Positions 21,266-59,260 of a stretch of 64,000 bases of DNA are shown here, one piece after another (position 1 is the first letter of the stretch; every line of letters begins with the position of its first letter). Below the pieces are notes generated by a model. That model was not told where the DNA came from and did no database searches. It saw nothing but the letters and a program-made list of their open reading frames with translations. Both the position numbers and the translations under genes were made by a program. The DNA is from an uncultured Bdellovibrionales bacterium (GTDB taxonomy: Bacteria; Patescibacteriota; Minisyncoccia; Moranbacterales; DUUL01), in NCBI GenBank assembly GCA_964346295.1, contig CAYFUG010000004.1, positions 532 to 64,531 on the forward strand. Direction: 5' to 3'.

Positions 21266-21520
21266 TTCTAGAAGGGATTTCTAGCTTTTGAACCTTGCGT
21301 TAGGATTTCATCCAATATGGCAAGAATCTTGTTGTCGTCACCCGATTTTCGATTGCAGAGTTATCTGGAATTGGAGCTTCTCTGAAATTTGAAAGCCCCC
21401 AGTCCTTTGCTGTCTTGTTGTGCTTGTACAAGTTGTGCAAGTTGATAAAATAATTCTAAAATTTAAAATTTAAAGGCTAGTCAGAATGACTAGTTGTAAT
21501 TTCCAATACTAAATCATTTT

Positions 21521-23302
21521 ATGAAAGAGCACACTAAAAAATTAGGGGGAAAGTTTTTGGCGATTATTTTGTTAGCAATTTTAGGGACAGTATTAGTGAG
21601 TCCGCGGGAAACCGGGATTGCTGGGATCGACAATTTTACTGACCGCTTCAGCTATAATTTAGGACTGGATTTAGCGGGAGGAGCTCGATTGACTTATCAG
21701 GCTGATATGAGTCAGGTTGATTCTGGTGATCAAGGAGAGGCCTTGAGTGGTTTGCAGGATGTAATTGAGCGGCGAGTAAATGCTTTTGGGGTAGCGGAGC
21801 CAAAGATTCAAACTGTTCAGAGCGGTAACAATTATCGCCTAGTAGTGGAATTGGCTGGCATTAAGGACCTAGGAGAGGCTAAGGAGATGATCAAAGAAAC
21901 GCCCTTTTTGGAGTTTAAGGAGCTAGGAGAGCCTCGAGACGAGAGCGATTTAACCGAGGAGGAAAATCAATTAATCGAGGAACAAATTACTCAAATAGAA
22001 GATTCTAATGAAGAGCAACGAAAAAAGGCTCAGGAAGTACTAGAAAAAGCTCTGCAAGGAGAGGATTTTGCTCAGTTAGCAGAGGAGTATTCAGAAGACA
22101 CTGTGAGCACGGAGCAAGGAGGGGATTTAGATTTTTTTAAGCGAGGGATAATGACAGAGTCTTTCGAAGAGACAATTTTTAGCGAAGAATTAGGAATCGA
22201 TGAGATTCACCCCGAGTTGGTGAAATCTCAATTTGGCTATCATATCATTAAAAAAACTGGGCAGCGAGGAGAGGGGGAAGAAGAGGAAGTAAAAGCTTCT
22301 CACATTCTTTTTAAGACCACGGAATCGGATCAATTGCGGCAAGCTTTTTTGGATCAGTTCTTGCAAGGCAACTTTGAGACTACTGAATTGACCGGAAAAG
22401 ACCTAGAAGGGGCTCAGATGGTGATTCAAAGTCAGCCGGGTCAAATTACTCAGCCGGTGGTACAGCTCCAGTTCAACAGTGAAGGAAGGGAAAAATTCAA
22501 GCAGATTACTGAAAGAAATGTAAGTAAGCCGGTAGCGATTTTTTTGGACGGACAGATTATTAGCTCCCCGGTGGTTAATAGTGTGATTAGAGATGGAAAG
22601 GCGGAGATCAGCGGTAAGTTTTCTGTTAAGGAGGCTAAGGAGTTGGCGCAACGCTTGAATGCGGGAGCCTTGCCGGTACCAATTAACTTAGTTAGTCAAG
22701 AAAGCGTAGAACCTTCTTTGGGGCAGAACGCTCTAGAGAAAAGTTTGCGAGCGGGAGCCTTGGGAATGGCGGCGGTAGCGATCTTTATGATTTTTTACTA
22801 CCGACTAGCGGGGATAGCAGCGGTGCTAGCCTTGGCTTTTTACGCCTTAATGATGGGCAGTATTTTTAAGTTTTCTTCGGTGTCTCAAATTACCGCCATT
22901 ACTTTAACTCTTTCGGGGATTGCTGGATTTATTCTTTCCTTGGGAATGGCGGTGGATGCTAACATTCTCATTTTCGAGCGAATGAGTGAAGAGGTGGCTC
23001 GAGGTCGGGATCTAAAAAAGGCTCTTAAGGAGGCTTATAAGCGAGCTTGGACTTCTATTCGAGACGGTAATGTTTCTACTCTGCTTACTTGTGGAATTTT
23101 AATGGCCTTTGGAAGTAGTTTTATTCAGGGTTTTGCGATTATTCTGGGTCTAGGAGTATTGCTCTCAATGTTTACTGCGATTGTGATTACCCGAGTTTTT
23201 ATGGAGCTACTGTTGCAAATCAGTTTTGTTAATAAGGCTCCGGGCTTGGTGATTGCACCCAAGCGGGTTAGAGGGTATAATAGAAAACGGAAACGCTCTT
23301 AG
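21521..23302 (+). CDS. secD: Protein translocase subunit SecD with parvulin-like insert
   Basis: LGLDLAGGARLTY, VAIFLDGQIISSPVV, and TM block LSGIAGFILSLGMAVDANILIFERMSEE. The internal GGDLDFF...FGYHIIKK...KASHILF segment resembles PpiC. Confidence 0.9.
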   Translation: MKEHTKKLGGKFLAIILLAILGTVLVSPRETGIAGIDNFTDRFSYNLGLDLAGGARLTYQADMSQVDSGDQGEALSGLQDVIERRVNAFGVAEPKIQTVQSGNNYRLVVELAGIKDLGEAKEMIKETPFLEFKELGEPRDESDLTEEENQLIEEQITQIEDSNEEQRKKAQEVLEKALQGEDFAQLAEEYSEDTVSTEQGGDLDFFKRGIMTESFEETIFSEELGIDEIHPELVKSQFGYHIIKKTGQRGEGEEEEVKASHILFKTTESDQLRQAFLDQFLQGNFETTELTGKDLEGAQMVIQSQPGQITQPVVQLQFNSEGREKFKQITERNVSKPVAIFLDGQIISSPVVNSVIRDGKAEISGKFSVKEAKELAQRLNAGALPVPINLVSQESVEPSLGQNALEKSLRAGALGMAAVAIFMIFYYRLAGIAAVLALAFYALMMGSIFKFSSVSQITAITLTLSGIAGFILSLGMAVDANILIFERMSEEVARGRDLKKALKEAYKRAWTSIRDGNVSTLLTCGILMAFGSSFIQGFAIILGLGVLLSMFTAIVITRVFMELLLQISFVNKAPGLVIAPKRVRGYNRKRKRS

Positions 23303-23464
23303 AAACTGTCTGAAAAGTATTATCCTACTGCAAATCCCAAATCTCGACTGCAAATTTATCAAATCTCGTCACCGTAGCTTAGGTTACAACTTCCTCAATT
23401 TTCAAAATTTTCGCACGAGATTATGAAATTTTCGTCGACGAAGAATACTTCTCAGACAGTTTCT
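23301..23464. repeat. MITE-like palindromic element (family B relative), 164 bp
   Basis: 21-bp terminal inverted repeats AGAAACTGTCTGAAAAGTATT / AATACTTCTCAGACAGTTTCT. Central CACCGTAGC...TTAC core. Overlaps the secD stop codon. Confidence 0.7.
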
Positions 23465-23836
23465 TAGGGGAACTTGAAGGAGGGCTTCCAAATTTTGAAA
23501 ATTTTAGAGCTAGATTATAAAGAGCAGTTCCCCCTTTTGAAGGGGGGTGACCGGTAACAGTCTTTCTGGTTATTAGGGGTTGTAGAAACTAGAAAAGCAA
23601 TTGATTTCAAAACTAAAACTAAAATTAAAATAAAAAAGAGAATTTGATTTGAGTTTAGATATTTGAGCTCAGAGGTTGAGATTGAAAATTAGTTATTAAG
23701 CCAGAAACCCCGCCTCTGGCGGAGTGCAGGGAAAACTAATTTTTATCTATCACTCGCAAGCTCGCTCTGATTCAAATTGTTTTCTCTACAAAATAAAAAT
23801 GAAAATTAAAAGTAGAAAAGGGGGTGAGGAAGCTTA

Positions 23837-24122: not shown

Positions 24123-24264
24123 GAGCCTTACTCATTTTGAAAATTTCGTTGTTGAAATCCGGGCTTCCCTTTCACCGTACACTTCAGTACGGCTCAAGCA
24201 AAGCCTACCTGCCTGTCGGCAGGCAGGGATTTCGCCTAGAACTCTCCTAAAATGAGAAAGTCTC
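24123..24264. repeat. MITE-like palindromic element, family B
   Basis: TIRs GAGCCTTACTCATTTT / AAAATGAGAAAGTCTC. Core TCACCGTACACTTCAGTACGG hairpin. Confidence 0.65.
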
Positions 24265-24377: not shown

Positions 24378-24995
24378 TTGAAGCAAGGCTTTTTAGTTAT
24401 TGCTCATAATATCCGCAGTTGCTACAATGTTGGCTCGATTTTTCGTAGTGCGGATGCTTTGGGCGTGGAAAAGATTTATTTAACCGGCTACACTCCCAGA
24501 CCGGGTGTTTTGGTTACTTCCGATGCTGAAAGTGGTCTTGATAAATTAAGCTTTAAGGTAAATTCTCATTCCGATTCAAATTTAAGTCTCGGAGAAAGAA
24601 GAGGCCCCAAAACGAGCTTTACTGAGGCGCTAAAAGCTAAAAAAGATGCCAAAAAGATTGCTAAAACGGCTTTAGGAGCAGAAGAAGTAGTTGCTTGGGA
24701 ATACCAGAGGCAATTAGGACCACTGATTCAAAAATTGCAGTCGCAAGGGGTGCAAGTGGTAGCTCTGGAGCAAGCTTCTAATAGTCTAAAATTAACTGAT
24801 TTTAAGCCCAATTTTCCTTTGGCGCTGCTAGTGGGTAACGAAGTGCGAGGAATCTCTCCTCAAATACTGAAAAAAGTGGACAAAATCGTAGAAATCCCGA
24901 TGCAAGGAAAGAAGGAGTCCTTGAATGTTGGGGTGGCATTTGGAATCGCCGGTTTTTGGCTCCAAGCTGTTGATTTTGGTAAATTTCGTTGTTGA
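24378..24995 (+). CDS. TrmH/SpoU-family RNA 2'-O-methyltransferase
   Basis: NVGSIFRSADALGVEKIYL, LLVGNEVRGIS and IPMQGKKESLNVGVAFGIA motifs. TTG start as in the track. Confidence 0.85.
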   Translation: MKQGFLVIAHNIRSCYNVGSIFRSADALGVEKIYLTGYTPRPGVLVTSDAESGLDKLSFKVNSHSDSNLSLGERRGPKTSFTEALKAKKDAKKIAKTALGAEEVVAWEYQRQLGPLIQKLQSQGVQVVALEQASNSLKLTDFKPNFPLALLVGNEVRGISPQILKKVDKIVEIPMQGKKESLNVGVAFGIAGFWLQAVDFGKFRC

Positions 24996-25080
24996 AGTCT
25001 CCACTTCTCGCTCACCGTAGCTTTATTACGGCTTGCTTCGATGCTCGACTTCGCCTAGAACCTTACTCAAAATCAATAGC
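24966..25080. repeat. MITE-like palindromic element, family B, overlapping the last 30 nt of the TrmH gene
   Basis: TIRs GCTGTTGATTTTGGTAA / TTACTCAAAATCAATAGC. Core CTCACCGTAGCTTTATTACGG. Confidence 0.65.
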
Positions 25081-25342
25081 TTGGCCTAGACTGTGGCTGC
25101 TTCAGATTAAACTCAAAATATTGTCTAAAATTTCCTCCCGCTTTTGCCAGTGCTACAGATGGGACAGATAAAACTTGAAAAACTTAGGCCTAGTCGTAGT
25201 TATTCTCTATTCCTGTTTTAAAAATTGCTTTCGCGACTAAATTTGGAAATTGCAGTAGAGATTAGATTTTTAAAACAGGCTCTTAGTGCCTAAGTGCTAT
25301 TTTAAAAAATAAAAAATCTAAGAAAGACTAAATTAAAAACTA

Positions 25343-42125: not shown

Positions 42126-42282
42126 TTAGTAGTTTTTGATTTTTAGTTCTTAGTTAATTTCAGAAGGGAATAATTTTTTGGCGTTGCTAACTAAAAATAC
42201 ACAGCTATTGTCATTCCGACTGAAGCGAAGCGAAATGGAGGAATCTTAGCTGAAAAATAATATAAGATCCCTCGACTCCCTC

Positions 42283-42322
42283 CTTCGCCAAGGCTACGGC
42301 GGGCAAGGCGCTCGGGATGACA
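42283..42322. repeat. Family-A short repeat (intergenic copy)
   Basis: CTTCGCCAAGGCTACGGCGGGCAAGGCGCTCGGGATGACA. A second repeat type, GTCATTCCGACTGAAGCGAAGCGAAATGGAGGAATC, lies at about 42208-42245. Confidence 0.5.
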
Positions 42323-42370
42323 AACTAAGAATTTTAGAAGCTATACTTTATTGGCAATACCAATTTTTTT

Positions 42371-42871: not shown

Positions 42872-43021
42872 TTTGATTTTATGAACGAGTTTTTTGAATT
42901 TTTTATCAAGCGATTGTTATGGGTTTGGATGCCGCTCTATGCACTGTATAGAGTCATTCTTGACTTTATTGAAGAGCGAGAACAGACCTGAGAGTTTTTT
43001 GAGTTGCTTTAATCAAGAAAT

Positions 43022-44218
43022 TTGACTTCAAAGAAAAAAAAACAGACCAGTTTTTTAGGGGACAAGAAGGTGGCTTTAGTCCACGATTTTTTGTTATACT
43101 GGGGGGGAGCGGAGGCCACTTTGCAAGTGTTGGCCAAAATGTTTCCTCAGGCGCCGATTTACACCCTGCTTCAGGATGAGCAGTTTACCAAAAAGCACTT
43201 CAGGGGGCGAGAAATCCGGACCTCGTTTTTACAGAAAATTCCCCGCTGGATCCGCAAAAAACACACTCGCTTATTGCCGCTAATGCCAACCGCCATTGAG
43301 TCGCTCAATTTGCGGGATTATGACTTGGTAATTTCCTCCTCTTCGGCTTTTGCCAAGGGAATTGTGGTGAAGCCTAAGACCACCCATGTTTGCTACATGC
43401 ACGCCCCTATGCGTTATGTCTGGGACTACTATCACCAGTATTTTCAAGAGCGCTTTGGCAATCGAGCTAAAATTTTTACCCGGACTTTTCTCAACTACTT
43501 GCGAACTTGGGATCGAGCCAGTGCCGACCGGGCTGATCATCTGGTTGCCAATTCTCGTTACACTGCTCGGCGAATCGAAAAATATTATCGTAGAGAATCC
43601 ATGGTGATTTATCCCCCAGTGGAGGTGGAAAAATTCGCCCTCAGTCCGGACAAGGCAAATTCCAGTATTTCTTCTAGCTCTGATTTGATAGAGAAGCAAA
43701 ATCAGGCCAGGAGAGGTAGCTATTTTTTGACAACGGGGCGCTTAGCGACTTATAAGCGGGTAGATCTTTTGATTGAGGCTTTTCAGAAGCTCAAGTTGCC
43801 GCTAGTGATAGTGGGTGATGGCCCGGAGCGTAAAAAGCTAGAGAAATTAGCCCAAGGGAACAGCAAGATAAAAATTTTAGGCTGGCAAAGTGAGGAAAAA
43901 TTAATTCGACTTTATCAAAATTCCCGGGCCTTTGTTTGTGCCACCGAAGATGATTTCAATATCACTTGCGTGGAGGCAATGGCAGCCGGAACGCCGGTAA
44001 TTGCCTTAAAAAAGGGCGGCGTGCAGGAAACAGTAATCGAAGGTCAGACGGGAATATTTTTCCAGGAGGCACGGTTGGAGCTAGTGGTGGATGGAGTGCG
44101 GCGGTTTATTGAAAAAGAGGCTGATTTTGACTCGGAGGTGATTCAGGCTCGAGCGAGGGAGTTTTCGAGGGAGAGATTTGAGAAGGAGATGCGAAAGTAC
44201 TTGACTTCCATTTTTTGA
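43022..44218 (+). CDS. Glycosyltransferase family 4 (GT-B, group 1)
   Basis: VALVHDFLLYWGGAE at the N-terminus and EDDFNITCVEAMAAGTPVIALKKGGVQETV (E-x7-E region). The start could be the TTG at 43022 or the GTG at the KKV-ALVH position. Confidence 0.85.
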   Translation: MTSKKKKQTSFLGDKKVALVHDFLLYWGGAEATLQVLAKMFPQAPIYTLLQDEQFTKKHFRGREIRTSFLQKIPRWIRKKHTRLLPLMPTAIESLNLRDYDLVISSSSAFAKGIVVKPKTTHVCYMHAPMRYVWDYYHQYFQERFGNRAKIFTRTFLNYLRTWDRASADRADHLVANSRYTARRIEKYYRRESMVIYPPVEVEKFALSPDKANSSISSSSDLIEKQNQARRGSYFLTTGRLATYKRVDLLIEAFQKLKLPLVIVGDGPERKKLEKLAQGNSKIKILGWQSEEKLIRLYQNSRAFVCATEDDFNITCVEAMAAGTPVIALKKGGVQETVIEGQTGIFFQEARLELVVDGVRRFIEKEADFDSEVIQARAREFSRERFEKEMRKYLTSIF

Positions 44219-44320
44219 AAATTTTGGTGTCAAAATCTCCGCTACTCCCTCACCGTAACTCTCAGTACGCCTCGCTCGCTGCTCGATTTCTCCTAAAAAT
44301 TTCCTAAAAAATGAAAGTCC
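44203..44320. repeat. 118-bp MITE-like palindromic element, family B, overlapping the GT4 stop
   Basis: TIRs GACTTCCATTTTTTGAAAATTTT / AAAATTTCCTAAAAAATGAAAGTCC. Core CTCACCGTAACTCTCAGTACG. Confidence 0.75.
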
Positions 44321-44417
44321 TTAAATATTTCTCGGATAGATGATAACTAGATTAAAATAAGACCCTGGATATTCTTTTTGGAAATTCCGGAATGGCAGGG
44401 TTTTAATTACAATCAAT

Positions 44418-44768
44418 ATGGGGATTCAAGTGGAATTTAATCCGGATTTGGCACTGAGAAATATTCAGCATTTTAATTCGGGGAAGCGCCAAAAAGAAGA
44501 GTGCATCCCAAAGCCTTTAGAAGAGGGTGGAGTCTATAACTTTCTGAAAGAAGGCCAGCGCAATTATTGGCTAGAAGGCGAGTTGCCGCTTTTAGAAACG
44601 GAAGGCGGGGGTCAGCTCTCTCGGCCTCGGGCCAGTATTGTGATTTTAGAGGCGACACACCTTTTAAAAAATGGTAAAATCTATACTAAGGGTAAGTATC
44701 AAGTGAAGAAGATCTTAGAAGAAGGGGAGGGGATTTATTTTGAAGGATTTAGTAAGGTGAGGAGTTAA
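44418..44768 (+). CDS. Hypothetical protein (116 aa)
   Basis: ORF only. Confidence 0.5.
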   Translation: MGIQVEFNPDLALRNIQHFNSGKRQKEECIPKPLEEGGVYNFLKEGQRNYWLEGELPLLETEGGGQLSRPRASIVILEATHLLKNGKIYTKGKYQVKKILEEGEGIYFEGFSKVRS

Positions 44769-44923
44769 TTTTCAAACCCGCTTTCATCTTAGGGCTTCAG
44801 CGAGGCGCAGCAATTTTTAATATTTTAATGATTGAATTTTAAATAAGCAGAGCAGGAAAAACAAAAACAGCCCTTTTAGGGCTGCTTGAAAGCTTATTTT
44901 TATTCTAAATATAGCAAAGCAAT

Positions 44924-44999
44924 AGAAGGGGGAACACTCGTTAAAATGTCTTCTTCTGCTATAATGTCGGTAGACATTTTAACGAGTGTTCCCCCTTCT
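44924..44999. repeat. Perfect 28-bp inverted repeat with a 20-nt loop that contains an extended -10 (TGCTATAAT)
   Basis: AGAAGGGGGAACACTCGTTAAAATGTCT (44924-44951) and its exact reverse complement (44972-44999). TATAAT at 44960-44965. Confidence 0.9.
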
Positions 45000-45191
45000 G
45001 TCAATACCCCTGAAAACAAAATTGTAATTGATAGCAGCAGTGAAATTTGTATTAAAAGTAACAACTTTGAAAGTTTCAGCATAAGTGATTTATTAGAAAA
45101 TATTAAGATTCTGATTAAGCATATTTTAGCATATTCAAGGGAAAAATCAAGGGTAAAAATCGATTCTAAGCGAGTAATTTGTCAAGCAAAG

Positions 45192-46835
45192 ATGAAAACA
45201 AAAACAAAAGCTAGTTCGCAGTCAGAAGAGGGGGGAATTTGGGATAGTTTTTGGGCTTGGGAGGCCCAGTTTAAAGAAGCTTTTTTTCGCAAAAGAAAAT
45301 TGCTGAGTGGGATGATTTTGGGACTGGTGCTGGTGGCCGGATTGCTTTTACGGCTAGGCTTCGCCCCTGCTAATCTGGCGGCAAATCCCGCTTCGGAGCC
45401 TTTTGTTTCCATTCTCCAAGAGCGCACTTTTTGGTACGATGAGGCGTTTACCGGAATTTTGCTAAAAGCCTCCTGGAAAGAGATGAATCAGATGATCTAT
45501 GACGATGTTCACCCTCCCCTTTATTACTGGTTGGCCAAGCCCTGGAGCGCAGCCTTTGACTATTCTCCGGTGGGGATTCGCTCTTTCTCTTTACTGTTTG
45601 GAATGCTGACAATAGTCTCTTTGTTTTGGATCGGATCGCGACTATTTGGCCCTAAGGCGGGTCGGTTGGCGGCAGCCTTGGCAGCCTTTTCGCCTTTTGC
45701 AGTGCAATATTCTCAAGAAGCTCGAATGTATGCCTTACTGGGCTTTTTGTTTTTGTGGGCTAGTTGGTTTTTCTATCGGGCTTTAGACAAAAATCGCCTC
45801 CAGGATTGGCTGATCTGGGGAGTTTTAGGCGGGCTTTGTTTTTACACTCACTACTTATCGTTGTTCTTTTTCGTTTCTTTTTATATTGCCTTTTATTTTT
45901 ACCAAGTGCTATTTCTCCAGGGCGGCTATTTTTGGTCCCTGTGGGGACAAAAGCGGCCGCTATTTTGGTTGGGAGTAGCGATAATAGGTGGCTTTTTTGC
46001 CAGTTGGTTGAAAGTTTTTTGGGTCCATTTTACCAAAACAGACGGGGACTTAGGCTGGATTGCGCCTTCTAACCTCAGTGATTTACCAGGAACACTGCAG
46101 ATTTTCCTTTTTGGTCATCCTCCGGGAGCAGGAGGCACGCCCGATGCTAATCCGTTAAAATTCTTTTTTGATCAAAGCTCGGTAGGACTTCTCGTCCTAG
46201 TGGCTATGGCGGTTTTGATTTTTTGCGCTTGGATTAAAAAGCGGCGTCGGCCGGAAATTCTAGTCTTGGGGACGATTTCCTTGGGCGCCTTACTGCTTTT
46301 AATTATCATCTCTCATTTTGACATTAAGTTTTATGTGGCCCGTTACATGATGCCAGCGGCAGTGATTTTTTACCTGCTTTTGAGTGGTTTGATAGTTTCT
46401 GCTACTCGGTGGCGACCAGGGCTGAAGGCAGTGATTTTTCTAGTGGCTTATTTGGCTCTCTTGTCAACTCTTCAACCGATTGACTACGCTCGGGGTTGGG
46501 CTAGGCTATATCAAGTGGATCAAGAAGTGGATTATCTCAAAAGCCGAATTCTGATAGCCAATGGTCCTTTTGAATACACTTCGGCTCGTTACTATTTTGG
46601 TCAAGAGCGAGTACGGTTTTTCAGCCCGGGTAATCTGGGAGAGGATTTTTCTGGTTGGGTGGTGGTGGGGAACCACAATCGCCTCAGTAGCAAAGAAGAG
46701 CTTCGGGCTAGCCCAAACTTTACAATTGTAGATCGGCAGTGTGAGTGGGAGGAGCTGAACTTAGAGGGCTATTCGATGAATATGAAGAGGTACGGGGAGA
46801 TGAGATTGTGCGTGCCGGGAACTTCCAAATTTTGA
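45192..46835 (+). CDS. Glycosyltransferase family 39 / ArnT-PMT-like membrane glycosyltransferase
   Basis: Polytopic membrane protein with DEAFTGIL...DVHPPLYYWL and SPFAVQYSQEARMY. Start moved to ATG 45192. The track ORF begins at 44886, across the palindrome. Confidence 0.8.
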   Translation: MKTKTKASSQSEEGGIWDSFWAWEAQFKEAFFRKRKLLSGMILGLVLVAGLLLRLGFAPANLAANPASEPFVSILQERTFWYDEAFTGILLKASWKEMNQMIYDDVHPPLYYWLAKPWSAAFDYSPVGIRSFSLLFGMLTIVSLFWIGSRLFGPKAGRLAAALAAFSPFAVQYSQEARMYALLGFLFLWASWFFYRALDKNRLQDWLIWGVLGGLCFYTHYLSLFFFVSFYIAFYFYQVLFLQGGYFWSLWGQKRPLFWLGVAIIGGFFASWLKVFWVHFTKTDGDLGWIAPSNLSDLPGTLQIFLFGHPPGAGGTPDANPLKFFFDQSSVGLLVLVAMAVLIFCAWIKKRRRPEILVLGTISLGALLLLIIISHFDIKFYVARYMMPAAVIFYLLLSGLIVSATRWRPGLKAVIFLVAYLALLSTLQPIDYARGWARLYQVDQEVDYLKSRILIANGPFEYTSARYYFGQERVRFFSPGNLGEDFSGWVVVGNHNRLSSKEELRASPNFTIVDRQCEWEELNLEGYSMNMKRYGEMRLCVPGTSKF

Positions 46836-46994
46836 ACCCCGCACTAGAGCTTTGCTCAATGCGGGACAAGAATCTCGTTGTTGCCGGTTGCGTTTCGAAC
46901 TCATCGTACCTTTAGTGCGACTCGTCCGAAGCCTCACCCTTCTTTCCCACTTTCCGCTAAGGCTACAGAAGGGACAGATAAAACTTGAAAGTCC
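46819..46994. repeat. Composite MITE-like element overlapping the GT39 stop
   Basis: Left end GAACTTCCAAATTTTGAAC. Right part GCTACAGAAGGGACAGATAAAACTTGAAAGTCC is shared with 25152-25178. Confidence 0.5.
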
Positions 46995-47017
46995 TGTCTT
47001 ATCCGGAAATATTCCAT

Positions 47018-47098
47018 TGATAAAATTTCCAGGAAAAACAATCAGTGGAGTGATATAAATTCCTTGATTTTTTATCAGTGGAGTGATAAAATTTCCAG
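47018..47098 (+). repeat. 33-bp tandem repeat (about 2.5 units) immediately upstream of the AAA+ ATPase start
   Basis: GATAAAATTTCCAGG at 47018 and 47084. ATCAGTGGAGTGATA at 47040 and 47073. Confidence 0.8.
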
Positions 47099-47102
47099 GT
47101 AA

Positions 47103-48377
47103 ATGATTAATTCTAGAAAAATGATTTCAAGAGAAATTTATCCTAAGCTTTATAGTTGGGCGAAAAAGGGCAAGATTATTATTTTGAAGGGACCTCGTCA
47201 GGCGGGGAAAACGACCCTGATGAATTTTTTATTAGACAATCTTAAAAAAGAAGGTCAAAATACCGCTTATTTGTTGGCAGATGACATTGATAAGCAAGAG
47301 TTGTTTAAGTCTCCAGCCGCTCTGGAATTTTACTTGAGTCAGAAGTATAATTTTCCCGAAAAACATCTTTTTCTTTTTATTGATGAGTTTCAATACATTG
47401 ATCAGGCGGGACTCTTCATTAAAAACTTTTTTGATAAGCATCAGGGCCAGGTAAATTTAATTTTAAGTGGGTCTAGTTCCCTGGAAATCACTCAAAATCA
47501 AGAGTTTTTGACCGGTCGGGCGGTGGAGTTTGAAATGGGAACTGTTAATTTTCGAGAGTTTTTTAATTTTCGAGAAGGAACTCGGATTAAAAAATTTCCC
47601 CTTGAAAGCCAGGATGATTTAAGTAATTTTTATAAATCCTTTGAGAGTAAGCTAAGCCTCGCCTTAAAGAATTTTTTAGTTTTTGGGGGGTATCCTGAGG
47701 TGGTGGAAACCTCATTAGAGGAAGATAAGAAAGTAATTTTAAAGTCGATTGTTAAGAAATATTTAGAAAAGGATGTGGCGGGTTTTTTGCAAATCGAAAA
47801 TATCACTGCCTTTAACAACTTAACGAAGATTTTGGCTTCTCAAATTGGTAATTTAGTTAATATTAGCGAACTGGCTAATACGGTAAACTTATCCATTAAC
47901 ACCGTTAAAAGATATCTGGATGTTTTGCAAGGGACATATGTCTTTAGTCTGGTGCGACCATATGCTAAGAACATTCGCAAGGAGCTAAGCAAAATGCCTA
48001 AAGTTTATATTCAAGACTTGGGGGCAAAAAATTATCTTTTAGGTGATTACAAAGACAATTTATTTGGTGGCAAGGAAGTGGAAAATTTTGTTTTTTTAGG
48101 GATGGCTAATAATTTAAGTTCAGAAGGAGTTAACTTCTATCGAACCAAGGGAGGCTCAGAGGTCGATTTTATTTTAGAAAAAGAGGGTGGCTTGAATTTG
48201 ATAGAAGTTAAATATCGGTCGGTTTCCAAGATCAAAGAGCCTCTGGCATTCGCCAATTTTTCGGAAAATTATGGAGACAGAGTTCAAAACAAGATTGTGA
48301 TTTCCAAAGATGTTTTAAAAAAAGATGGGAATATTTACTTTATTCCGGCGGTGCTTTGGCCCTGGATAGAGTTATAG
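47103..48377 (+). CDS. AAA+ ATPase of the AAA_14/DUF4143 type
   Basis: Walker A KGPRQAGKTT, Walker B LFIDEFQ. Paralog of the ORFs at 6258 and 7623. Confidence 0.9.
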   Translation: MINSRKMISREIYPKLYSWAKKGKIIILKGPRQAGKTTLMNFLLDNLKKEGQNTAYLLADDIDKQELFKSPAALEFYLSQKYNFPEKHLFLFIDEFQYIDQAGLFIKNFFDKHQGQVNLILSGSSSLEITQNQEFLTGRAVEFEMGTVNFREFFNFREGTRIKKFPLESQDDLSNFYKSFESKLSLALKNFLVFGGYPEVVETSLEEDKKVILKSIVKKYLEKDVAGFLQIENITAFNNLTKILASQIGNLVNISELANTVNLSINTVKRYLDVLQGTYVFSLVRPYAKNIRKELSKMPKVYIQDLGAKNYLLGDYKDNLFGGKEVENFVFLGMANNLSSEGVNFYRTKGGSEVDFILEKEGGLNLIEVKYRSVSKIKEPLAFANFSENYGDRVQNKIVISKDVLKKDGNIYFIPAVLWPWIEL

Positions 48378-48419
48378 CTTTCAGGTGGTTTTTTAGGCAA
48401 ATTAAATTAAAACAAAAAT

Positions 48420-49652
48420 ATGAAACAAACTAAAATTATTACCGAAAAGTGGGAGCAGGTGAGTCCAAGATTTATCTCTAGCTACCAAAAGACAGGAGGT
48501 TATCAGGATTTGGCTAAAGCCTTAAAAATGGGTCCGGATCAGGTACTTCAAGAGGTGTTAGCGTCTGGTCTGGCCGGTCGGGGCGGGGGCGGATTTCCTA
48601 CCGGAAAAAAGTGGCAAACGGCTTTAGAACAAAAAGCTTCGGAAAACTACTTTATCTGCAATTTGGATGAATCGGAGCCAGGGACTTACAAAGATCGCTA
48701 TTTAGCGGAAAGTAGTCCTCACCAGCTTTTAGAGGGCATTATGATTGCTTCTTTTGCCCTCAAGGTGAAGAAGGCTTACATTTACCTCAATGGAAATTTT
48801 CACGCCGCTCGGCAGTTGCTGCAAAACGCCCTTCAACAAGCCCAGGAAGCCGGATTTTTAGGAGAGAATATCTTGGAGAGCGGTTTTGATTTAGAAATCG
48901 AACTATTCGTGGGGGCGGGGGCCTATATTTGCGGAGAGGAATCAGCTTTGATTAATTCTATTGAGGGTAAAAGAGGGGAGCCACGGCGCCGGCCTCCTTT
49001 TGCTTGTGTTTGCGGACTGCATAATCGCCCTACGGTTGTGAACAACGCCGAAACTATTGCCAACTTGCCTTGGATAATCCAGAATGGCGGCAAGGCTTAT
49101 TCCCGGGTTGGCCTGCCAGATCAGCCGGGTACTAAACTTTTTTCCATCGGGGGAATGGTGCGTAACCCTGGTTTGTACGAGTTTCCTTTGGGCGTCAGTG
49201 TGCGAGAATTGGTTTACAAAGCGGGAATGGGCATGCGGCCAGGATTGGATTTTTGGTTTGCTCAAGTGGGGGGATCAGCCGGTCGCCTGGTAACGCGCAA
49301 TTTATTGGATGAAATTCCTAGTTATTCTCGCAAGGCTCGGATTTCGGTAGGATCGGGGGCGGTGCTGGTGGTAGATAAAAACCAGGACATCAAGGAACTT
49401 TTACTAGCTTGGAGCCGGTTTTTTGCTCGGGAGTCTTGCGGGCAGTGTGTTCCGTGTCGAGAGGGGACTTTCCGTTTGCAGCAGCTTGTAGAGCGCTTGG
49501 GGGGAGAAAATTTCAGTCAAGATGATTGGGAGGACATGCAGCGCATTATTTTCACTCTGGAGCGGAGTACTTTTTGCGCTTTAGGGAAGTTTGCAGCGGT
49601 GGCGATTAAGGATGCGCTGGAGCTGAAGTTGGTGGAGGCTTCCAAATTTTGA
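48420..49652 (+). CDS. NuoF-like NADH-binding FMN/Fe-S flavoprotein (51-kDa subunit family)
   Basis: GLAGRGGGGFPTGKKW, GAGAYICGEESALINSIEG and ESCGQCVPCREG motifs. Confidence 0.9.
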   Translation: MKQTKIITEKWEQVSPRFISSYQKTGGYQDLAKALKMGPDQVLQEVLASGLAGRGGGGFPTGKKWQTALEQKASENYFICNLDESEPGTYKDRYLAESSPHQLLEGIMIASFALKVKKAYIYLNGNFHAARQLLQNALQQAQEAGFLGENILESGFDLEIELFVGAGAYICGEESALINSIEGKRGEPRRRPPFACVCGLHNRPTVVNNAETIANLPWIIQNGGKAYSRVGLPDQPGTKLFSIGGMVRNPGLYEFPLGVSVRELVYKAGMGMRPGLDFWFAQVGGSAGRLVTRNLLDEIPSYSRKARISVGSGAVLVVDKNQDIKELLLAWSRFFARESCGQCVPCREGTFRLQQLVERLGGENFSQDDWEDMQRIIFTLERSTFCALGKFAAVAIKDALELKLVEASKF

Positions 49653-49754
49653 AAATTTTGGTGTTGCAAGCTGCGTTTGGCACTCACCGTACCCTTCAGT
49701 ACGGCTCGCACCAAGCCTCGCTTGCGCCTAAAAATTTCCTAAAATTTGGAAGCC
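49637..49754. repeat. 118-bp MITE-like palindromic element, family B, overlapping the NuoF-like stop
   Basis: TIRs GGCTTCCAAATTTTGAAAATTTTGGTG / CCTAAAAATTTCCTAAAATTTGGAAGCC. Core CTCACCGTACCCTTCAGTACGG. Confidence 0.8.
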
Positions 49755-49815
49755 TTAATCCAGCGGTTATTTTTAGTGGGAGATTTTTACAAGTTAACTT
49801 TTAAAATTTATTAAA

Positions 49816-50349
49816 ATGCAAAATCAGCCTAAAAATTGGCCTCAGGGGGGGGCAGAGCGAGGTAGCAGACAAGAGTTTTTTAATGCTCCAGAAAGAGAGC
49901 AGCAAGTAAGGGCTAAAAGATTAGATTCCTTGCTTGCTAGAGAGCGAGGAAATTATTTAGATTTTTGCCTGAATTTGTATAAATACCCTGATAGATTCAA
50001 AGGTAATTCTGAGAAAAATACAAAAATTTTTAATCAGCTTAGCTCTGGAAGTAGGATTTTAGAGAGGGCATTTGCTTTTTTTCTTGCTCAAAAAAGAAAT
50101 CAGGACACAAAAGGAGCCCATGAGGAATTGGGAAATATTATACAAAGTGATACTGGTGGTATTTCTGACCCTAATAATTTTCAGATTGATATCGATAAGG
50201 CTAAAGAAATGTTTCGATGGGGATTAGATTTGTATGTCAACGGAGGTGGTGAAAAAATTGGTAGGACACCTACTATCTCTGGAGGAGAGATTGATTCTTT
50301 GGTGGACGATATGGGGGAAATTTTAACAAAGGTAAATCAGTGGAGGTAG
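49816..50349 (+). CDS. Hypothetical protein (177 aa)
   Basis: ORF only. Confidence 0.55.
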   Translation: MQNQPKNWPQGGAERGSRQEFFNAPEREQQVRAKRLDSLLARERGNYLDFCLNLYKYPDRFKGNSEKNTKIFNQLSSGSRILERAFAFFLAQKRNQDTKGAHEELGNIIQSDTGGISDPNNFQIDIDKAKEMFRWGLDLYVNGGGEKIGRTPTISGGEIDSLVDDMGEILTKVNQWR

Positions 50350-50373
50350 TTTAATTAAAATCAAAAATTAAAA

Positions 50374-51525
50374 ATGGAGCGATTAATCAATCTCAAAAAG
50401 CCGGGTAATTTTGCTGGTAATCCAGAGGAATTCAGAGCTCTAGTAGCCTCGGCGAGTTCAAGTGAATCAGAGGCAGTTAAGAGCTTCTTGGAAAAAGCCG
50501 AGGATGAAGAATTCGAAACCTTTTCTTTGTTTTTAGAAAATGCTGATAAGCACTTAGGACTTTCTTTTGATCAGCTGGAGGAGTTGAAAGTTTTGTTAAT
50601 TAAAAACTTGCGAGGAGAGGGCAAGGAAGATTTTTTAAGGGCAATGCAAAGGGCCAATCAGATTTTGCAATTTCAAGGTAGGGATGGTTTACTTGATACT
50701 ATTCAAGCTAAGAGAAGGGCTAGGGATGGTGCTAAAGTTTTAGTTGAACCAGCCTTGGCTTGTCTGTTGGCAGTTTTCTTAACAGTAGGAATTGCGGGAG
50801 AAGCGTTTTCTTCGACTGATATGGAGGGAATGACTTTTAGAGAAGTCAGGGAATTTGTTACGAGTGGAAATCAAGAAAGTGATAAGAAGCTACCCTTTAA
50901 AATCCTTGGTATGAAAACTGCTAGCAATGGAGCTTGGCGAGCAGTAGAAAGCGAAATAAGACATTCAAGGGAGCCCATTACAAAAATAGCAAGAAAGGTG
51001 ACGGAAGGAGTTGAGAGAGTCTATTTTTATTATGAAGGTGAGATTAGGCCTAGTTACTCTTGGAGTGGAAGGAAAGGCGAAAGTGACGTTGTTGAGTCAG
51101 TAGGAGGGGCTAAAGAAATCTCTGCAAATCTTTTAGAAGATGGCTTTAGAGGGAGTGTCGATCAATTGAAAGAATCATCAAGTAGAGCTGTTTTTAGTAA
51201 GTTAAGTAAAAACCAGCGAGAGGCTCTAGGGGATTTTTTATCTAATATAACAAGCAATCCTCAAGTAGGGGTAAGCTTTAATGAGTACACTCTTTCCTCG
51301 GGCAAGACAATCTTGATTCCTTTGGTAAGTTATTTTATTGGAGGGTATGAAGTCAAGGTTAAGTTTCTTTTTAATAGGACAGAAATTACAGCTAAAGGGA
51401 AAGAGAAGGAGTTGGGTGGTCAGGAAACTAAGCATATTTTAATTAAGAAAGGAGGTGGTTTTTCTAGTTCTGACATATTAAGTTTAATTAATGGACAAGA
51501 TGACCCGGAAAATCAGCGTCAGTGA
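50374..51525 (+). CDS. Hypothetical protein (383 aa) with one central TM-like segment
   Basis: ORF only. Same strand as, and tightly spaced with, the previous ORF. Confidence 0.6.
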   Translation: MERLINLKKPGNFAGNPEEFRALVASASSSESEAVKSFLEKAEDEEFETFSLFLENADKHLGLSFDQLEELKVLLIKNLRGEGKEDFLRAMQRANQILQFQGRDGLLDTIQAKRRARDGAKVLVEPALACLLAVFLTVGIAGEAFSSTDMEGMTFREVREFVTSGNQESDKKLPFKILGMKTASNGAWRAVESEIRHSREPITKIARKVTEGVERVYFYYEGEIRPSYSWSGRKGESDVVESVGGAKEISANLLEDGFRGSVDQLKESSSRAVFSKLSKNQREALGDFLSNITSNPQVGVSFNEYTLSSGKTILIPLVSYFIGGYEVKVKFLFNRTEITAKGKEKELGGQETKHILIKKGGGFSSSDILSLINGQDDPENQRQ

Positions 51526-55944: not shown

Positions 55945-56360
55945 AAACTAAAATACTACAATTCCTAGTCGCTTGGTCTAGCTTTGTCTAGATCAAGAGG
56001 AAAGTCTGGACACCAGCCGGCTTTCAATTGGAAGCCAGTTAAAAGGGTAATCGGTAACGCCGATCGGGCTCGATGTGAGTCGAGTCAAGGGATAGCGCCG
56101 CAGAGACAATACTAGTTAATGCTCTGCATTAACGAAAGGTGAAAAGTGTCGAGGGGCTCATTTCTTCGGAATTTGAGCTACTCGACTCGGCTATTGGCGA
56201 CAATAGTTTGTGGCAAGCCCTACCCGGTGCAAGGCCGTGTCTTCTCGTAAAAGAGAGGAAGTGCCGCTAAAGTTCAGCAGTGATGTTGAATGTAGATAAA
56301 TGACTAGGCCAATTTACTTTGGTAGATTGGTACAGAATCCGGCTTATTTTATCTAGTTTT
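55945..56360 (+). ncRNA. rnpB: RNase P RNA (bacterial type A-like)
   Basis: GAGGAAAGTCTGG (55997-56009) and ACAGAATCCGGCTTA (56332-56346) form the universal P4 strands. P1 pairing is AAACTAAAATA / TATTTTATCTAGTTT. GC-rich relative to its surroundings. Confidence 0.85.
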
Positions 56361-56658
56361 CAGTTAGTAGTTTTCAGTTTTTAGGCCGCATGGAGGCAGC
56401 GCAGGTTATAGAAGCGAGTCCTTTGTAAAAATCTCGAGCGTTGTTTACAGCTTTCTTTATTAGTAGAACACCTCTATTTTTCTTCATGAGGCATTTTGTC
56501 TCCTATATAAGGCAATAAACGCCGTCATTAAAACTGGAGCGGTTTGAAATTGAAATTTAAAAATGTAAACAACGCTAAGGAATCTTACAAGTTATTTCTT
56601 ATCTTGAATTTTCTGGTGTAGTATATGCTGAGCTAAGATAGAAAATAAAATCAAAAGA

Positions 56659-58051: not shown

Positions 58052-58837
58052 TTAAGCTGGCAAAGTTTTCCAAAGTTGCTCAAATTGGGTGCGTTGGAGA
58101 GCGTAGATTTGAGGATCTTCGATAATGATGGAAATTAACCCGGAGGACCCGATTGCCTGGTAGGAGATTTTATTGTGATAAATTTGAATGGAAGCGCTGA
58201 AGTTAAGGGCGCTTTTTTTAATGAAACGCACTTGAGTGATGGCCTGGTAATTAGCGGGAGCAGTTCGATATTCTTCGATTATTCCGGGTTCATCAAGATC
58301 GATAATCCTTTTTTGGAGCCCCAAACGGGCTCTTTTTTGAGTGTAGCGAGCGTTGATCTTCTCATTGTTTTTGGCTAATTTCGGATCAGTGGTTCTAAAA
58401 ATAGCAGCAGAATCGATTAAAGTGAGAATTTCCGTGTCGCTGCGCAAAGTGTCCTCCAGCACTTTCTCTAGACCTTCGGAGCCCTCTAAAAAGCGAATTC
58501 CTGGTCGATTGAGGCCCAAATTGTATAAAGAAGCTAAGTTAGGCGCCATCTCTAAGAAGGCGCTTTTTTGTTGCTTAAATTCTTGCTCTTTTTGATCGAG
58601 GATTTTTTGGATTTGAGCCGGGTGTTGAGCGGAAAAACGGGCTACTTTGCCTTTTTTATCAAGCCTAAAGACTAGTTCCAGGTTCTCTAGCTCAGCCAGA
58701 ATTTTATAGGCGGCTTCTCTGGGGCGGTTGGTTTTTTGGGCAATTTCTCGGGCTCGGGTCGGTCCGTTTTGGTAGAGGAATTCCAAGATTTGGGCTTGGG
58801 AGGGGGTGAGGCCGATGCTTTGGAGAAGTTCCAGCAT
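58052..58837 (-). CDS. TrmB-family transcriptional regulator (paralog 3)
   Basis: GLTPSQAQILEFLYQNGPTRAREIAQKTNRPREAAYKILAELENLELV. Divergent from the module 3 promoter. Confidence 0.8.
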   Translation of the reverse strand: MLELLQSIGLTPSQAQILEFLYQNGPTRAREIAQKTNRPREAAYKILAELENLELVFRLDKKGKVARFSAQHPAQIQKILDQKEQEFKQQKSAFLEMAPNLASLYNLGLNRPGIRFLEGSEGLEKVLEDTLRSDTEILTLIDSAAIFRTTDPKLAKNNEKINARYTQKRARLGLQKRIIDLDEPGIIEEYRTAPANYQAITQVRFIKKSALNFSASIQIYHNKISYQAIGSSGLISIIIEDPQIYALQRTQFEQLWKTLPA

Positions 58838-58846
58838 ATTGAGAAG

Positions 58847-58964
58847 AACTTCCAGATTTGGCGAATCTCGATGTTACTCGCTGCGTTTAGTACTCACCAT
58901 ACTTCTTAGTACGCCTCCCACTAAGCCTCACTTGCACCTAGAGCTTCACTCAAATCTGAAAGTT
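58847..58964. repeat. 118-bp MITE-like palindromic element, family B
   Basis: TIRs AACTTCCAGATTTGGCGAA / TTCACTCAAATCTGAAAGTT. Core CTCACCATACTTCTTAGTACG. Confidence 0.75.
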
Positions 58965-59119
58965 TTAAAGTAAGCTGTTTATTTTGTCATGGGTAATTTT
59001 AGCACATTTATATTTTTTGTAAACTTTTAAGATTACATTTTTTAGGCTTATTTAATTATTTTATCTTTATTGAGTTATTTTTTAAAGTAACATTTTCAAT
59101 TTTAGTGTAGTTTTGATTA

Positions 59120-59148
59120 TTGACAAATATTAATTATTATGCTACAAT
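59120..59148 (+). promoter_or_regulatory. Module 3 promoter (consensus sigma70, extended -10)
   Basis: TTGACA, 17-nt spacer, TGcTACAAT. A/T-rich upstream. Followed by GTCAAGCTCAGAAAAGG (59154-59170). Confidence 0.75.
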
Positions 59149-59260
59149 GCTCTGTCAAGCTCAGAAAAGGTTCAGATTCGTGGGTTTTGATTGTTGGAAT
59201 AATTTTGAGATCCGGAAAAAGGCTTAAAAAGCTTTTCTCGGGCTCTCAAAGCAGAGCCTA

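What the first reader, a model, noticed from the sequence alone, without database searches (positions are those of the whole stretch)
49637..49754. A ~118-bp palindromic MITE family inserts at gene 3' ends and donates stop codons and shared C-terminal residues
Copies lie at 23301-23464, 24123-24264, 24966-25080, 44203-44320, 46819-46994, 49637-49754 and 58847-58964, with weaker relatives near 21270-21420. They share AT-rich terminal inverted repeats of the type (G)ACTTCCAAATTTTGAAAATTTTGG and a central CTCACCGTA...TACGG hairpin.

Five copies overlap the end of an ORF, so unrelated proteins end alike. The NuoF-like protein ends ...EASKF*, GT39 ends ...GTSKF*, GT4 ends ...LTSIF*, and TrmH ends ...GKFRC*. 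The secD stop codon lies in the element terminus. The whole element can fold as one long hairpin, so the copies probably also act as transcription terminators or RNA-stability elements.
Basis: seen in the sequence. Interest (0 to 1): 0.55.

Follow-up and report, generated by a model that had tools for sequence, protein, structure and literature searches.

The report
Stop-codon-hugging mobile hairpin repeat family
A 120-base hairpin-forming repeat sits directly on the stop codons of ordinary genes in this small (candidate-phyla-radiation type) bacterial genome and sometimes rewrites the last few amino acids; the same element, with the same fold, occurs in many bacterial phyla and has not been catalogued as an RNA family.

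Summary
The window has six clear copies of a ~118-nt palindromic repeat, all on the + strand. It also has one decayed copy, one solo end and one distinct palindromic element. Four copies contain the stop codon of the upstream gene.

A related organism (NuoF 87% identical) lacks the element after its NuoF-like, GT39 and GT4 genes. Those genes end differently there (KLVTR*, CAPKRD*, FLSKIG*), so the element is mobile and supplies stops and C-terminal residues.

A covariance model finds about 140 full-length copies in Patescibacteria, Rokubacteria, Acidobacteria, Synergistota, Spirochaetes and others. All share one architecture: six helices, three 3x3 pyrimidine-rich internal loops and a conserved apex. 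Stem sequence is only 36% identical between copies, yet 80% of pairs are kept.

The 5' end sits on the stop codon of a same-strand upstream gene in 56 of 136 copies. The 3' end is almost never anchored this way. A symmetric TA-inserting MITE does not predict that asymmetry.

No transposase, unambiguous target duplication, Rfam family or T-tract was found.

Best reading: a non-autonomous mobile hairpin element recognised as a folded single strand. It is a new variant of a known kind.

The parts
49636..49755 (+). Best-preserved copy. Its 5' arm encodes the last residues (E)ASKF and the TGA stop (49650-49652) of the NuoF-like gene 48420-49652.
   Evidence: CM 110.7 bits. nhmmer E 1e-34. Fold -51.1 kcal/mol, z -7.6. 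The orthologue in L126 has no element and ends KLVTR*.
44202..44320 (+). Full copy. It contains the TGA stop (44216-44218) of the GT4 glycosyltransferase 43022-44218 (...LTSIF*).
   Evidence: CM 72 bits. The orthologue in L250 ends ...FLSKIG* TAA and has no element downstream.
46819..46994 (+). Rearranged copy. There is an extra 29-nt hairpin in the 5' arm, the core is intact at 46886-46938, and the 3' arm is largely replaced by another repeat motif. It contains the TGA stop (46833-46835) of the GT39/PMT_2 gene (...GTSKF*).
   Evidence: nhmmer E 3e-23. CM core 40 bits. The orthologue in L126 ends ...CAPKRD* with no element.
24964..25082 (+). Full copy with a divergent but fully compensated outer stem. 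It encodes the last about 9 residues (AVDFGKFRC) and the TGA stop (24993-24995) of the SpoU/TrmH methylase 24378-24995.
   Evidence: CM 105.8 bits. Homologues end 5-8 residues after the conserved AFGIAGY. The relative L128 ends on a decayed 5' terminus of the element.
24123..24264 (+). Copy with an extra GC-rich hairpin (CCTGCCTGTCGGCAGGCAGG) inserted in its 3' half. It starts 5 nt after the TAG stop of the small ORF 23837-24118.
   Evidence: nhmmer E 2e-28. CM 41 bits. Fold. The same inserted hairpin is seen in the L250 copies.
58846..58965 (+). Full copy in a divergent intergenic region, 8 nt upstream of the start of the minus-strand TrmB-like gene 58052-58837. It is not at a gene 3' end.
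   Evidence: CM 94 bits. Gene calls.
21270..21400 (+). Decayed copy of the 46819 subtype with no apex. It starts 5 nt after the stop of the UDP-glucose dehydrogenase gene 19964-21265.
   Evidence: Alignment. A 3'-terminus match at 21372-21397. Pfam annotation.
23483..23505 (+). Solo 5' terminus (GGGCTTCCAAATTTTGAAAATTTTAG).
   Evidence: nhmmer partial hit to profile positions 1-23. Sequence.
23301..23464 (.). A separate 164-nt palindromic element whose centre resembles the apex of this family. It starts on the SecD TAG stop (23300-23302) and is flanked by a direct CTTAG repeat.
   Evidence: Sequence. Fold -26.8 kcal/mol, z -5.1. Not matched by the profile or the CM.

Best explanation
The repeat is a non-autonomous mobile element of a widespread hairpin family. 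The family is abundant in Patescibacteria/CPR and also present in Rokubacteria, Acidobacteria, Synergistota, Spirochaetes and others.

It is about 119 nt long and folds into one long hairpin with a fixed plan:
- a variable outer stem, often RRACTTYCAAA.../...TTTGRAAGTYY
- two 3-bp helices
- a conserved 3x3 loop (GTT/CTN) with a conserved U.G pair next to it
- two variable helices separated by a second 3x3 loop
- a third 3x3 loop (TCA/CTC)
- a conserved apex, CCGTAC-loop-GTACGG

Shown: copies are gained and lost between related organisms. New copies land at, or a few codons inside, the 3' end of a gene in the sense orientation. The 5' arm then supplies the stop codon and, in this genome, the last 4-9 residues (xSKF*, SIF*, AVDFGKFRC*).

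Inferred: the active form is probably a folded single strand, most likely DNA. Three results point that way. Pairing is preserved along the whole length while stem sequence is nearly free. The loops are asymmetric and strand-specific. G.T pairs are no more common than A.C mismatches. This resembles REPINs moved by RAYT enzymes, IS200/IS605-type elements, or integron attC sites, more than a double-stranded terminal-repeat MITE. A strand-specific mechanism of that kind, plus selection against gene disruption, would explain why only the 5' end is anchored to stop codons and why all window copies lie on one strand.

The enzyme is unknown. Any effect on mRNA ends is a side consequence that remains to be tested.
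For: **Real repeat family**
- establish six copies in the window.

**Wide distribution**
- A 17-base apex pattern hit at least 120 genome loci, mostly CPR.
- Model R1 finds 147 matches in those loci plus the window, 136 of them at least 100 nt long.
- These include high-GC Rokubacteria (90 bits) and a 7.1-Mb Bryobacterales contig.

**Structure**
- On a 14-sequence MAFFT alignment made without reference to any structure (sequences chosen for equal segment lengths; pairs assigned by hand from the individual folds), 37 of 45 pairs show changes on both sides. 78% of cells are paired, against 31-41% for slid controls.
- On 117 sequences, 44 of 45 pairs show such changes and 83% of cells are paired.
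- Stem columns outside the apex are 36% identical between copies but 80% paired.

**DNA-like rather than RNA-like constraint**
- G.T 276 cells against A.C 275.

**Strand asymmetry**
- Pyrimidine-pyrimidine mismatches 571 against purine-purine 159.
- The + strand is 58% pyrimidine.

**Stop-codon anchoring**
- 92 of 136 copies have a sense ORF ending within 45 nt of the 5' end; 56 of those end at -4..+3.
- 29 copies have a convergent ORF ending near the 3' end; only 1 ends at -4..+3.
- The upstream gene is on the same strand in 98 cases and the opposite strand in 28.

**Mobility**
- Three sites occupied in the window are empty in a relative, with different C-termini there.
- That relative has copies at other sites, one directly after a TGA stop.

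**Not explained by known categories**
- No Rfam family.
- No T-tract terminator signature.
Against: - No transposase or integrase of any kind was found. The window holds only housekeeping genes. No split or autonomous copies appeared in 1.7 Mb of fetched loci.
- TA lies at both junctions in roughly a third of copies. This fits an IS630/Tc1-type TA duplication, that is, a double-stranded mechanism. Because TA is self-complementary, it cannot be told apart from an extension of the palindrome.
- The empty sites are in an organism too diverged to give exact boundaries.
- The orientation bias could come from selection at the RNA level rather than from the insertion mechanism.
- The conserved U.G pair and the pyrimidine-rich loops would also suit an RNA-binding partner.
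- Loci were chosen by the apex sequence, so conservation of the apex is partly due to how they were collected.
Confidence: 0.6

Rival explanations
1. It is a classical double-stranded MITE of the IS630/Tc1-mariner type. A transposase supplied in trans binds the terminal inverted repeats and inserts at TA, duplicating it. Copies survive mainly where the TA of a TAA/TAG stop was hit, because TA plus the purine that starts the element re-creates a stop codon.
For: - The terminal consensus is t-a|RRACTTYCAA...TTGRAAGTYY|t-a.
- TAA/TAG lies at the 5' junction in 48 of 133 copies, and TA-containing triplets are about equally common at the 3' junction.
- 86% of the anchored stops are TAA or TAG.
- RUP (IS630-Spn1, TA target) is a precedent (PMC2229807).
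Against: - The model is symmetric, so both ends should be anchored to stops equally. Only the 5' end is anchored, 56 against 1.
- The window copies lack a 5' TA.
- The copy in L250 abuts a TGA stop that is itself part of the palindrome.
- A double-stranded mechanism needs conserved termini only. Here the interior helices are kept paired with free sequence, and the best-conserved parts are internal.
- No IS630-like gene was seen.
Confidence: 0.3
2. It is primarily a functional RNA module of mRNA 3' ends in CPR and other bacteria. The hairpin would start at the stop codon and act as a terminator, a shield against 3' exonucleases, a processing site, or a device coupled to translation termination. 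Under this view, mobility is secondary or ancient.
For: - Anchoring is sense-specific and sits exactly at the stop codon.
- The element is usually followed by a fairly long spacer before the next gene.
- There is a conserved U.G pair and conserved unpaired nucleotides.
- ERIC and Correia repeats affect mRNA fate in an orientation-dependent way (PMC2229807, PMC3049150).
Against: - G.U is no more frequent than A.C in stems.
- The antisense strand would fold better as RNA in 133 of 136 copies.
- There is no U-tract.
- Orthologous genes in a close relative do without it.
- About 20% of copies lie in antisense or divergent contexts.
- It matches no Rfam family.
Confidence: 0.25
3. It is an integron-like attC recombination site that marks the 3' end of mobile gene cassettes.
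For: - It is an imperfect hairpin of attC-like size with conserved unpaired bases and strand asymmetry.
- It lies directly after an ORF in the same orientation.
- All window copies are co-oriented.
- It occurs in phyla known to have chromosomal integrons (known from the literature, not tested here).
Against: - There are no RYYYAAC/GTTRRRY core sites at the base of the hairpin.
- The flanked genes are housekeeping genes (SecD, SpoU, NuoF-like, GT4), and their orthologues exist without the element at their 3' ends, though in a partly different gene order.
- Copies occur in both orientations within 8 kb in other genomes.
- No integrase is present in the window.
Confidence: 0.04

Closest known systems
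Pneumococcal BOX / RUP / SPRITE small interspersed repeats (PMC3049150)
   Same: Short, non-coding, hairpin-forming, multi-copy repeats in transcribed intergenic DNA. BOX repeats overlap the extreme 3' end of 36 genes and encode their stop codon. RUP uses a TA target and an IS630 transposase supplied in trans.
   Different: Those families are restricted to a genus. The present one spans phyla with one conserved fold. Here a change of C-terminus is shown by orthologue comparison, whereas the pneumococcal study found no clear truncations. The strict 5'-end, sense-only anchoring has not, to my knowledge, been described.
REPINs (REP doublets) mobilised by RAYT transposases
   Same: Hairpins of about 100 nt kept as a structure. 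They are dispersed in extragenic space, long-lived within lineages, and thought to be handled as folded single-stranded DNA.
   Different: REPs carry a conserved GTAG or CGTC tag and are most conserved at the ends of the doublet. Here the apex and an internal loop are most conserved, and no GTAG tag is present. Whether a RAYT gene is present could not be examined.
ERIC/IRU and Correia (NEMIS) elements (PMC2229807)
   Same: Palindromic repeats of 100-155 bp co-transcribed with neighbouring genes. ERIC has an orientation-dependent effect on the upstream mRNA. Correia is cleaved by RNase III, uses a TA target, and has no known transposase. From memory only, the Correia consensus shares short strings with this family (CCGTACTATTTGTAC, CGCCTTG).
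   Different: ERIC is enterobacterial and Correia is restricted to Neisseria. No sequence comparison could be run here, so homology is a lead, not a result.
Integron attC sites
   Same: An imperfect hairpin recognised by structure, with conserved unpaired bases, strand specificity and a position just after an ORF.
   Different: The core sites, cassette arrays and integrase are absent, and the neighbouring genes are housekeeping genes.

Membership tests
MITE (miniature inverted-repeat transposable element) | Small (under 300 bp), non-coding, many dispersed copies | tested here: met
   Copies are 115-176 nt. There are six copies plus remnants in 64 kb, and multiple copies per 8-kb locus in other genomes.
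MITE (miniature inverted-repeat transposable element) | Terminal inverted repeats | tested here: met
   The outer stem is 16-20 bp or longer, with consensus RRACTTYCAA/TTGRAAGTYY. However, the entire element is inverted-repeat, and its interior is better conserved than its ends.
MITE (miniature inverted-repeat transposable element) | Presence/absence polymorphism at orthologous sites | tested here: met
   L126 and L250 lack the element after the NuoF-like, GT39 and GT4 genes and carry copies elsewhere.
MITE (miniature inverted-repeat transposable element) | Target-site duplication | tested here: inconclusive
   TA is frequent at both junctions, but it is self-complementary, so it cannot be told from an extension of the palindrome. 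The window copies have no 5' TA. The empty sites are too diverged to give exact boundaries.
MITE (miniature inverted-repeat transposable element) | Autonomous partner element with matching ends and a transposase | tested here: inconclusive
   None was found in the window or in about 1.7 Mb of fetched loci. Whole genomes could not be searched.
REPIN / REP-RAYT system | Inverted pair of 20-40 nt REP units with a GTAG or CGTC tag, most conserved at the ends | tested here: not met
   The consensus of 104 copies has no such tag. Conservation peaks at the apex and at the P3/P4 loop.
REPIN / REP-RAYT system | Hairpin maintained as a single-strand structure | tested here: met
   Covariation. 36% identity against 80% pairing.
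REPIN / REP-RAYT system | A cognate RAYT (Y1 HUH) gene flanked by the repeats | not testable with these tools
   This needs whole genomes of the hosts. Only 8-kb loci were available.
Integron attC site | R''/R' core sites (RYYYAAC ... GTTRRRY) at the base of the hairpin | tested here: not met
   The junction profiles and consensus show RRACTTYC.../...GRAAGTYY.
Integron attC site | Co-oriented arrays of cassettes next to an integrase | tested here: not met
   The genes between copies are housekeeping genes, and no integrase is present. Other genomes have mixed orientations.
Intrinsic (Rho-independent) terminator | GC-rich hairpin followed by a T/U tract | tested here: not met
   No copy is flagged by the terminator scan of 43000-50500. 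The 3' junction profile shows no T run.
Any curated RNA family (Rfam 15) | Match to a covariance model | tested here: not met
   There is no match at gathering score in the window or in 18 loci with strong copies. Nothing meaningful appears at E up to 10 around 49637 on either strand.
IS200/IS605-type single-strand element (PATE) | Insertion 3' of a fixed short target on one strand, no duplication, subterminal hairpins, replication-strand bias | tested here: inconclusive
   The one-sided anchoring and the single-strand placement in the window (GC skew) fit. However, the element is one long hairpin rather than two subterminal ones. No fixed target beyond a stop-like TAR was seen, and no TnpA was found.

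The most novel reading that the evidence does not exclude
The family is a previously undescribed, phylum-spanning class of strand-specific hairpin element. One possibility is that an unknown enzyme moves it as folded single-stranded DNA and targets the position just after a stop codon on the coding strand. The other is that CPR and other bacteria keep it as a functional 3'-end module coupled to translation termination. In either case the three regularly spaced pyrimidine-rich loops would form the binding surface for a conserved, still unidentified protein.
Probability: 0.3. Interest if true: 0.8.

Novelty: new variant of a known kind. Interest (0 to 1): 0.62.

Why it matters
- **Repeat load in reduced genomes.** CPR/Patescibacteria have very small genomes in which selfish repeats are expected to be rare. 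Here there is about one copy per 9 kb, each sitting on a gene end and rewriting C-termini.
- **Annotation.** A covariance model now exists that finds the element across phyla. Many 'variable C-termini' and odd stop positions could be explained by it, and assemblies may break at it.
- **Mechanism.** The one-sided, sense-only anchoring to stop codons, together with whole-length structural conservation, gives a concrete handle for finding either a new single-strand transposition system or a new 3'-end RNA element in organisms with almost no experimental genetics.
- **If it is ordinary.** If it turns out to be a plain IS630-type MITE, it is still a useful marker of recent rearrangement, but of modest interest.

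Tried and rejected
- RNAalifold on a plain MAFFT alignment of 41 copies found only the apex stem, because stem registers were misaligned. This was solved by picking 14 copies of equal segment lengths and writing the structure by hand.
- Profiles of the two arms alone found nothing, because the arms are too variable in sequence.
- The single metagenome scan used the AT-rich terminal pattern CTTCCANNTTTTGAAAATTT. It returned 120 loci; the 99 of them searched with the model (plus the viral locus L129) held no element, so those are chance matches. No genome-wide census of the source organism was obtained.
- The viral-contig scan gave one match, which the model did not confirm.
- Searches for autonomous or split copies gave only chance pairs inside ordinary genes. 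Two approaches were tried: terminal motifs 0.06-3.5 kb apart, and apex halves 0.3-4 kb apart.
- An exact look-up of the 803-aa window protein failed.
- Literature searches for the sequence, and for CPR plus MITE, palindrome or structured RNA, found nothing specific.
- Rejected readings: attC site (no core sites, housekeeping neighbours), intrinsic terminator (no T-tract), a coding repeat (indels break the frame between copies), and a chance palindrome (E-values and covariation rule it out).
Full report
**1. Checking the observation**

The window is a 64-kb piece of a 65-kb metagenome contig (JGI 3300012002). The same sequence also occurs in microbial-mat assemblies. It carries housekeeping genes almost all on the + strand, and GC skew is positive across nearly the whole window (one near-zero bin at 34-36 kb).

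A profile built from the claimed copies finds six + strand copies with E-values from 1e-23 to 1e-34. Beyond these it finds only a solo 5' end at 23483-23505 and a 3'-end fragment at 21372-21397. A covariance model confirms this.

Each copy folds into one long imperfect hairpin.

- 23301-23464 is a separate palindromic element. It starts on the SecD stop and is flanked by a direct CTTAG repeat.
- 46819-46994 is rearranged.
- 58847 lies upstream of a divergent gene, not at a gene 3' end.

**2. Distribution beyond this genome**

I scanned one genome per species with the apex pattern TCACCGTA-N5-6-AGTACGNCTC. The scan hit its 120-locus limit. About 140 chance matches are expected in a database of this size (my estimate).

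Most hits came from Patescibacteria: Saccharibacteria, Paceibacteria, Kaiser-, Zambryski-, Uhr-, Lloyd-, Yonath- and Vogelbacteria. That enrichment is far beyond their share of the database.

The similarity extends well beyond the pattern. I built covariance model R1 from 14 copies of equal segment lengths. It finds 147 matches, 136 of them at least 100 nt long. These include:
- Rokubacteria at 65% GC (80-90 bits)
- a 7.1-Mb Bryobacterales contig
- Pyramidobacter
- Treponema
- a Clostridia MAG
- several gammaproteobacterial MAGs

Some labels, such as 'Nitrospira' and 'Bacillota', may be mis-binned CPR contigs. The high-GC examples cannot be.

No Rfam family matches, either in the window or in 18 loci with strong copies.

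**3. Anatomy**

The element has these parts, from the outside in:
- outer stem P1, at least 16 bp, often RRACTTYCAAA.../...TTTGRAAGTYY
- a 1-nt/2-nt offset
- P2, 3 bp
- a 1x1 mismatch
- P3, 3 bp
- a 3x3 loop, GTT/CTN
- a 2-bp helix with a conserved U.G pair
- a bulged T
- P5, 6 bp
- a 3x3 loop, roughly CTCC/CCTC
- P6, 9 imperfect bp
- a 3x3 loop, TCA/CTC
- apex stem CCGTAC/GTACGG with a 5-6 nt loop

Segment lengths are nearly invariant at 18/23-24/18.

Covariation is very strong:
- On the 14-sequence MAFFT seed alignment, made without reference to any structure (pairs assigned by hand from the individual folds), 37 of 45 pairs change on both sides. 78% of cells are paired, against 31-41% when partners are slid.
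- On 117 sequences, 44 of 45 pairs change on both sides and 83% of cells are paired. That alignment was fitted to the model, so it leans towards the structure.
- Outside the apex, stem columns are only 36% identical between copies, yet 80% of pairs are intact in each copy.
- Within the window, copies are 46-69% identical in stems but 77-95% paired.

Outside the apex, which is conserved partly because of how loci were collected, the conserved positions surround the basal loop. Structure rather than sequence is preserved, which implies a folded single strand.

**4. Which strand, and DNA or RNA**

- G.T and A.C cells in stems are equally common, 276 against 275. RNA structures under selection normally tolerate G.U far better than A.C.
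- Mismatches are strongly asymmetric: 571 pyrimidine-pyrimidine against 159 purine-purine.
- The + strand is 58% pyrimidine.
- As RNA, the minus strand would fold better in 133 of 136 copies, with mean -54.6 against -41.7 kcal/mol.

The strand sense to the upstream gene is therefore not optimised as an RNA hairpin. The conserved asymmetry still shows that the two strands are not equivalent.

**5. Genomic context**

The gene upstream of the 5' end is on the same strand in 98 cases and on the opposite strand in 28.

In 92 of 136 copies, a sense ORF of at least 80 codons ends within 45 nt of the 5' end. In 56 of these the stop codon ends at -4..+3 relative to model position 1; about 8 would be expected if ends were spread evenly. 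In about 18 copies the stop lies 7-32 nt inside the element.

By contrast, 29 copies have a convergent ORF ending near the 3' end, and only one of them falls at -4..+3.

In many copies the palindrome includes the stop codon itself. One example is the copy in L250, which abuts a TGA.

TA is frequent at both junctions. This fits a TA duplication, but it equally fits a two-base extension of the palindrome.

**6. Mobility and the C-termini**

Contigs L126 and L250 come from another metagenome (JGI 3300037274). Their NuoF-like, GT39 and GT4 proteins are 87%, 72% and 71% identical to those of the window. None of the three genes is followed by the element there, and the proteins end differently:

| Gene | Relative (no element) | Window |
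|---|---|---|
| NuoF-like | KLVTR* | KLVEASKF* |
| GT39 | CAPKRD* | CVPGTSKF* |
| GT4 | FLSKIG* | YLTSIF* |

The same relative carries copies at other sites.

A third relative, L128, has a SpoU gene that ends ...GRAFKFLEL* on a decayed 5' terminus of the element. That insertion is therefore older and has eroded there, while the window copy stayed fully paired with a different outer stem.

So the element comes and goes on the time scale of species divergence. In this genome it supplies stop codons and 4-9 terminal residues.

**7. What it is not**

- It is not a canonical terminator. There is no T-tract and no copy is flagged.
- It is not an attC site. The core sites are absent, the neighbours are housekeeping genes, and other genomes show mixed orientations.
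- It does not visibly belong to an autonomous element. No transposase is present in the window, and no split or flanking arrangements were found in the loci.

**8. Interpretation**

The element is best read as a non-autonomous mobile hairpin element. Three features are poorly explained by a symmetric double-stranded TA-inserting MITE: the whole-length structural conservation, the conserved strand-specific loops, and the one-sided anchoring to stop codons. They are better explained by handling as a folded single strand, as with REPINs and RAYT enzymes, IS200/IS605 elements or attC sites. That step is inference. The enzyme, the exact boundaries and any duplication remain unknown.

An RNA-level role remains a serious rival, or an additional layer. 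Candidates are a 3'-end shield, a processing site, or coupling to termination. ERIC and Correia are precedents for orientation-dependent effects of repeats on mRNA (PMC2229807, PMC3049150). Stop-codon donation itself is a known phenomenon: pneumococcal BOX repeats encode the stop of 36 genes (PMC3049150).

**9. Verdict**

It is more interesting than reported because the family is conserved in structure across phyla, is uncatalogued, and is anchored to stop codons in a directional way. I class it as a new variant of a known kind, small palindromic interspersed repeats.

Noticed in passing
window 9046-9105, 9128-9187, 28878-28937, 59120-59179: A 60-nt repeat family that looks like a strong promoter plus a shared leader. 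It reads TTGACA, then 17 nt, then an extended -10 (TATGCTACAAT), followed by GTCAAGCT[AC]AGAAAAGG. A similar unit occurs in the relative L128 at about 1633-1670.
   Followed up: no
window 32704-32836 and 34003-34135: Two 133-nt direct repeats, 98% identical and 1299 nt apart, bracket the ORF 32889-33971 of 360 aa. This could be a recent duplication or the ends of a mobile unit.
   Followed up: no
window 6079-6147, 34304-34372, 42263-42331 (short form about 24318-24350); also 34223-34290, 41275-41342, 41953-42020; L128 640-775; L126 3395-3440: Two further small intergenic repeat families share a motif like TTCGCYAARGCTWCGGNGGRCAAG. One is framed by TAAGATCCCTCGAC...CGCTCGGGATGACA. They are conserved at orthologous sites in relatives. 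Their function is unknown.
   Followed up: partly
window 25150-25178 and 46950-46990: A shared 29-nt motif, GCTACAGAnGGGACAGATAAAACTTGAAA. Its end resembles the 3' terminus of the main element. At 46950 it replaces most of the 3' arm of copy 46819.
   Followed up: partly
window 23301-23464: A second, distinct 164-nt palindromic element starts on the SecD stop codon. It is flanked by a direct CTTAG repeat, a clearer candidate target duplication than any seen for the main family.
   Followed up: partly
window 47018-47128: Three and a half tandem copies of a 33-nt unit (TGATAAAATTTCCAGG...CAGTGGAGTGATA) lie just upstream of, and overlap, the start of the AAA-ATPase/DUF4143 gene at 47103.
   Followed up: no
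window 24206-24227; L250 2208-2232 and 3000-3022: The same GC-rich mini-hairpin (CCTGCCTG-YCGG-CAGGCAGG) is inserted at the same place in the 3' half of copies in two different organisms. This points to a distinct subfamily rather than independent insertions.
   Followed up: no
window 55953-56363: A bacterial RNase P RNA, class A, on the + strand at 144.6 bits.
   Followed up: no
window 6258-7505, 7623-8957, 47103-48377: Three paralogous AAA_14/DUF4143 ATPase genes lie within one 64-kb stretch of a small genome.
   Followed up: no
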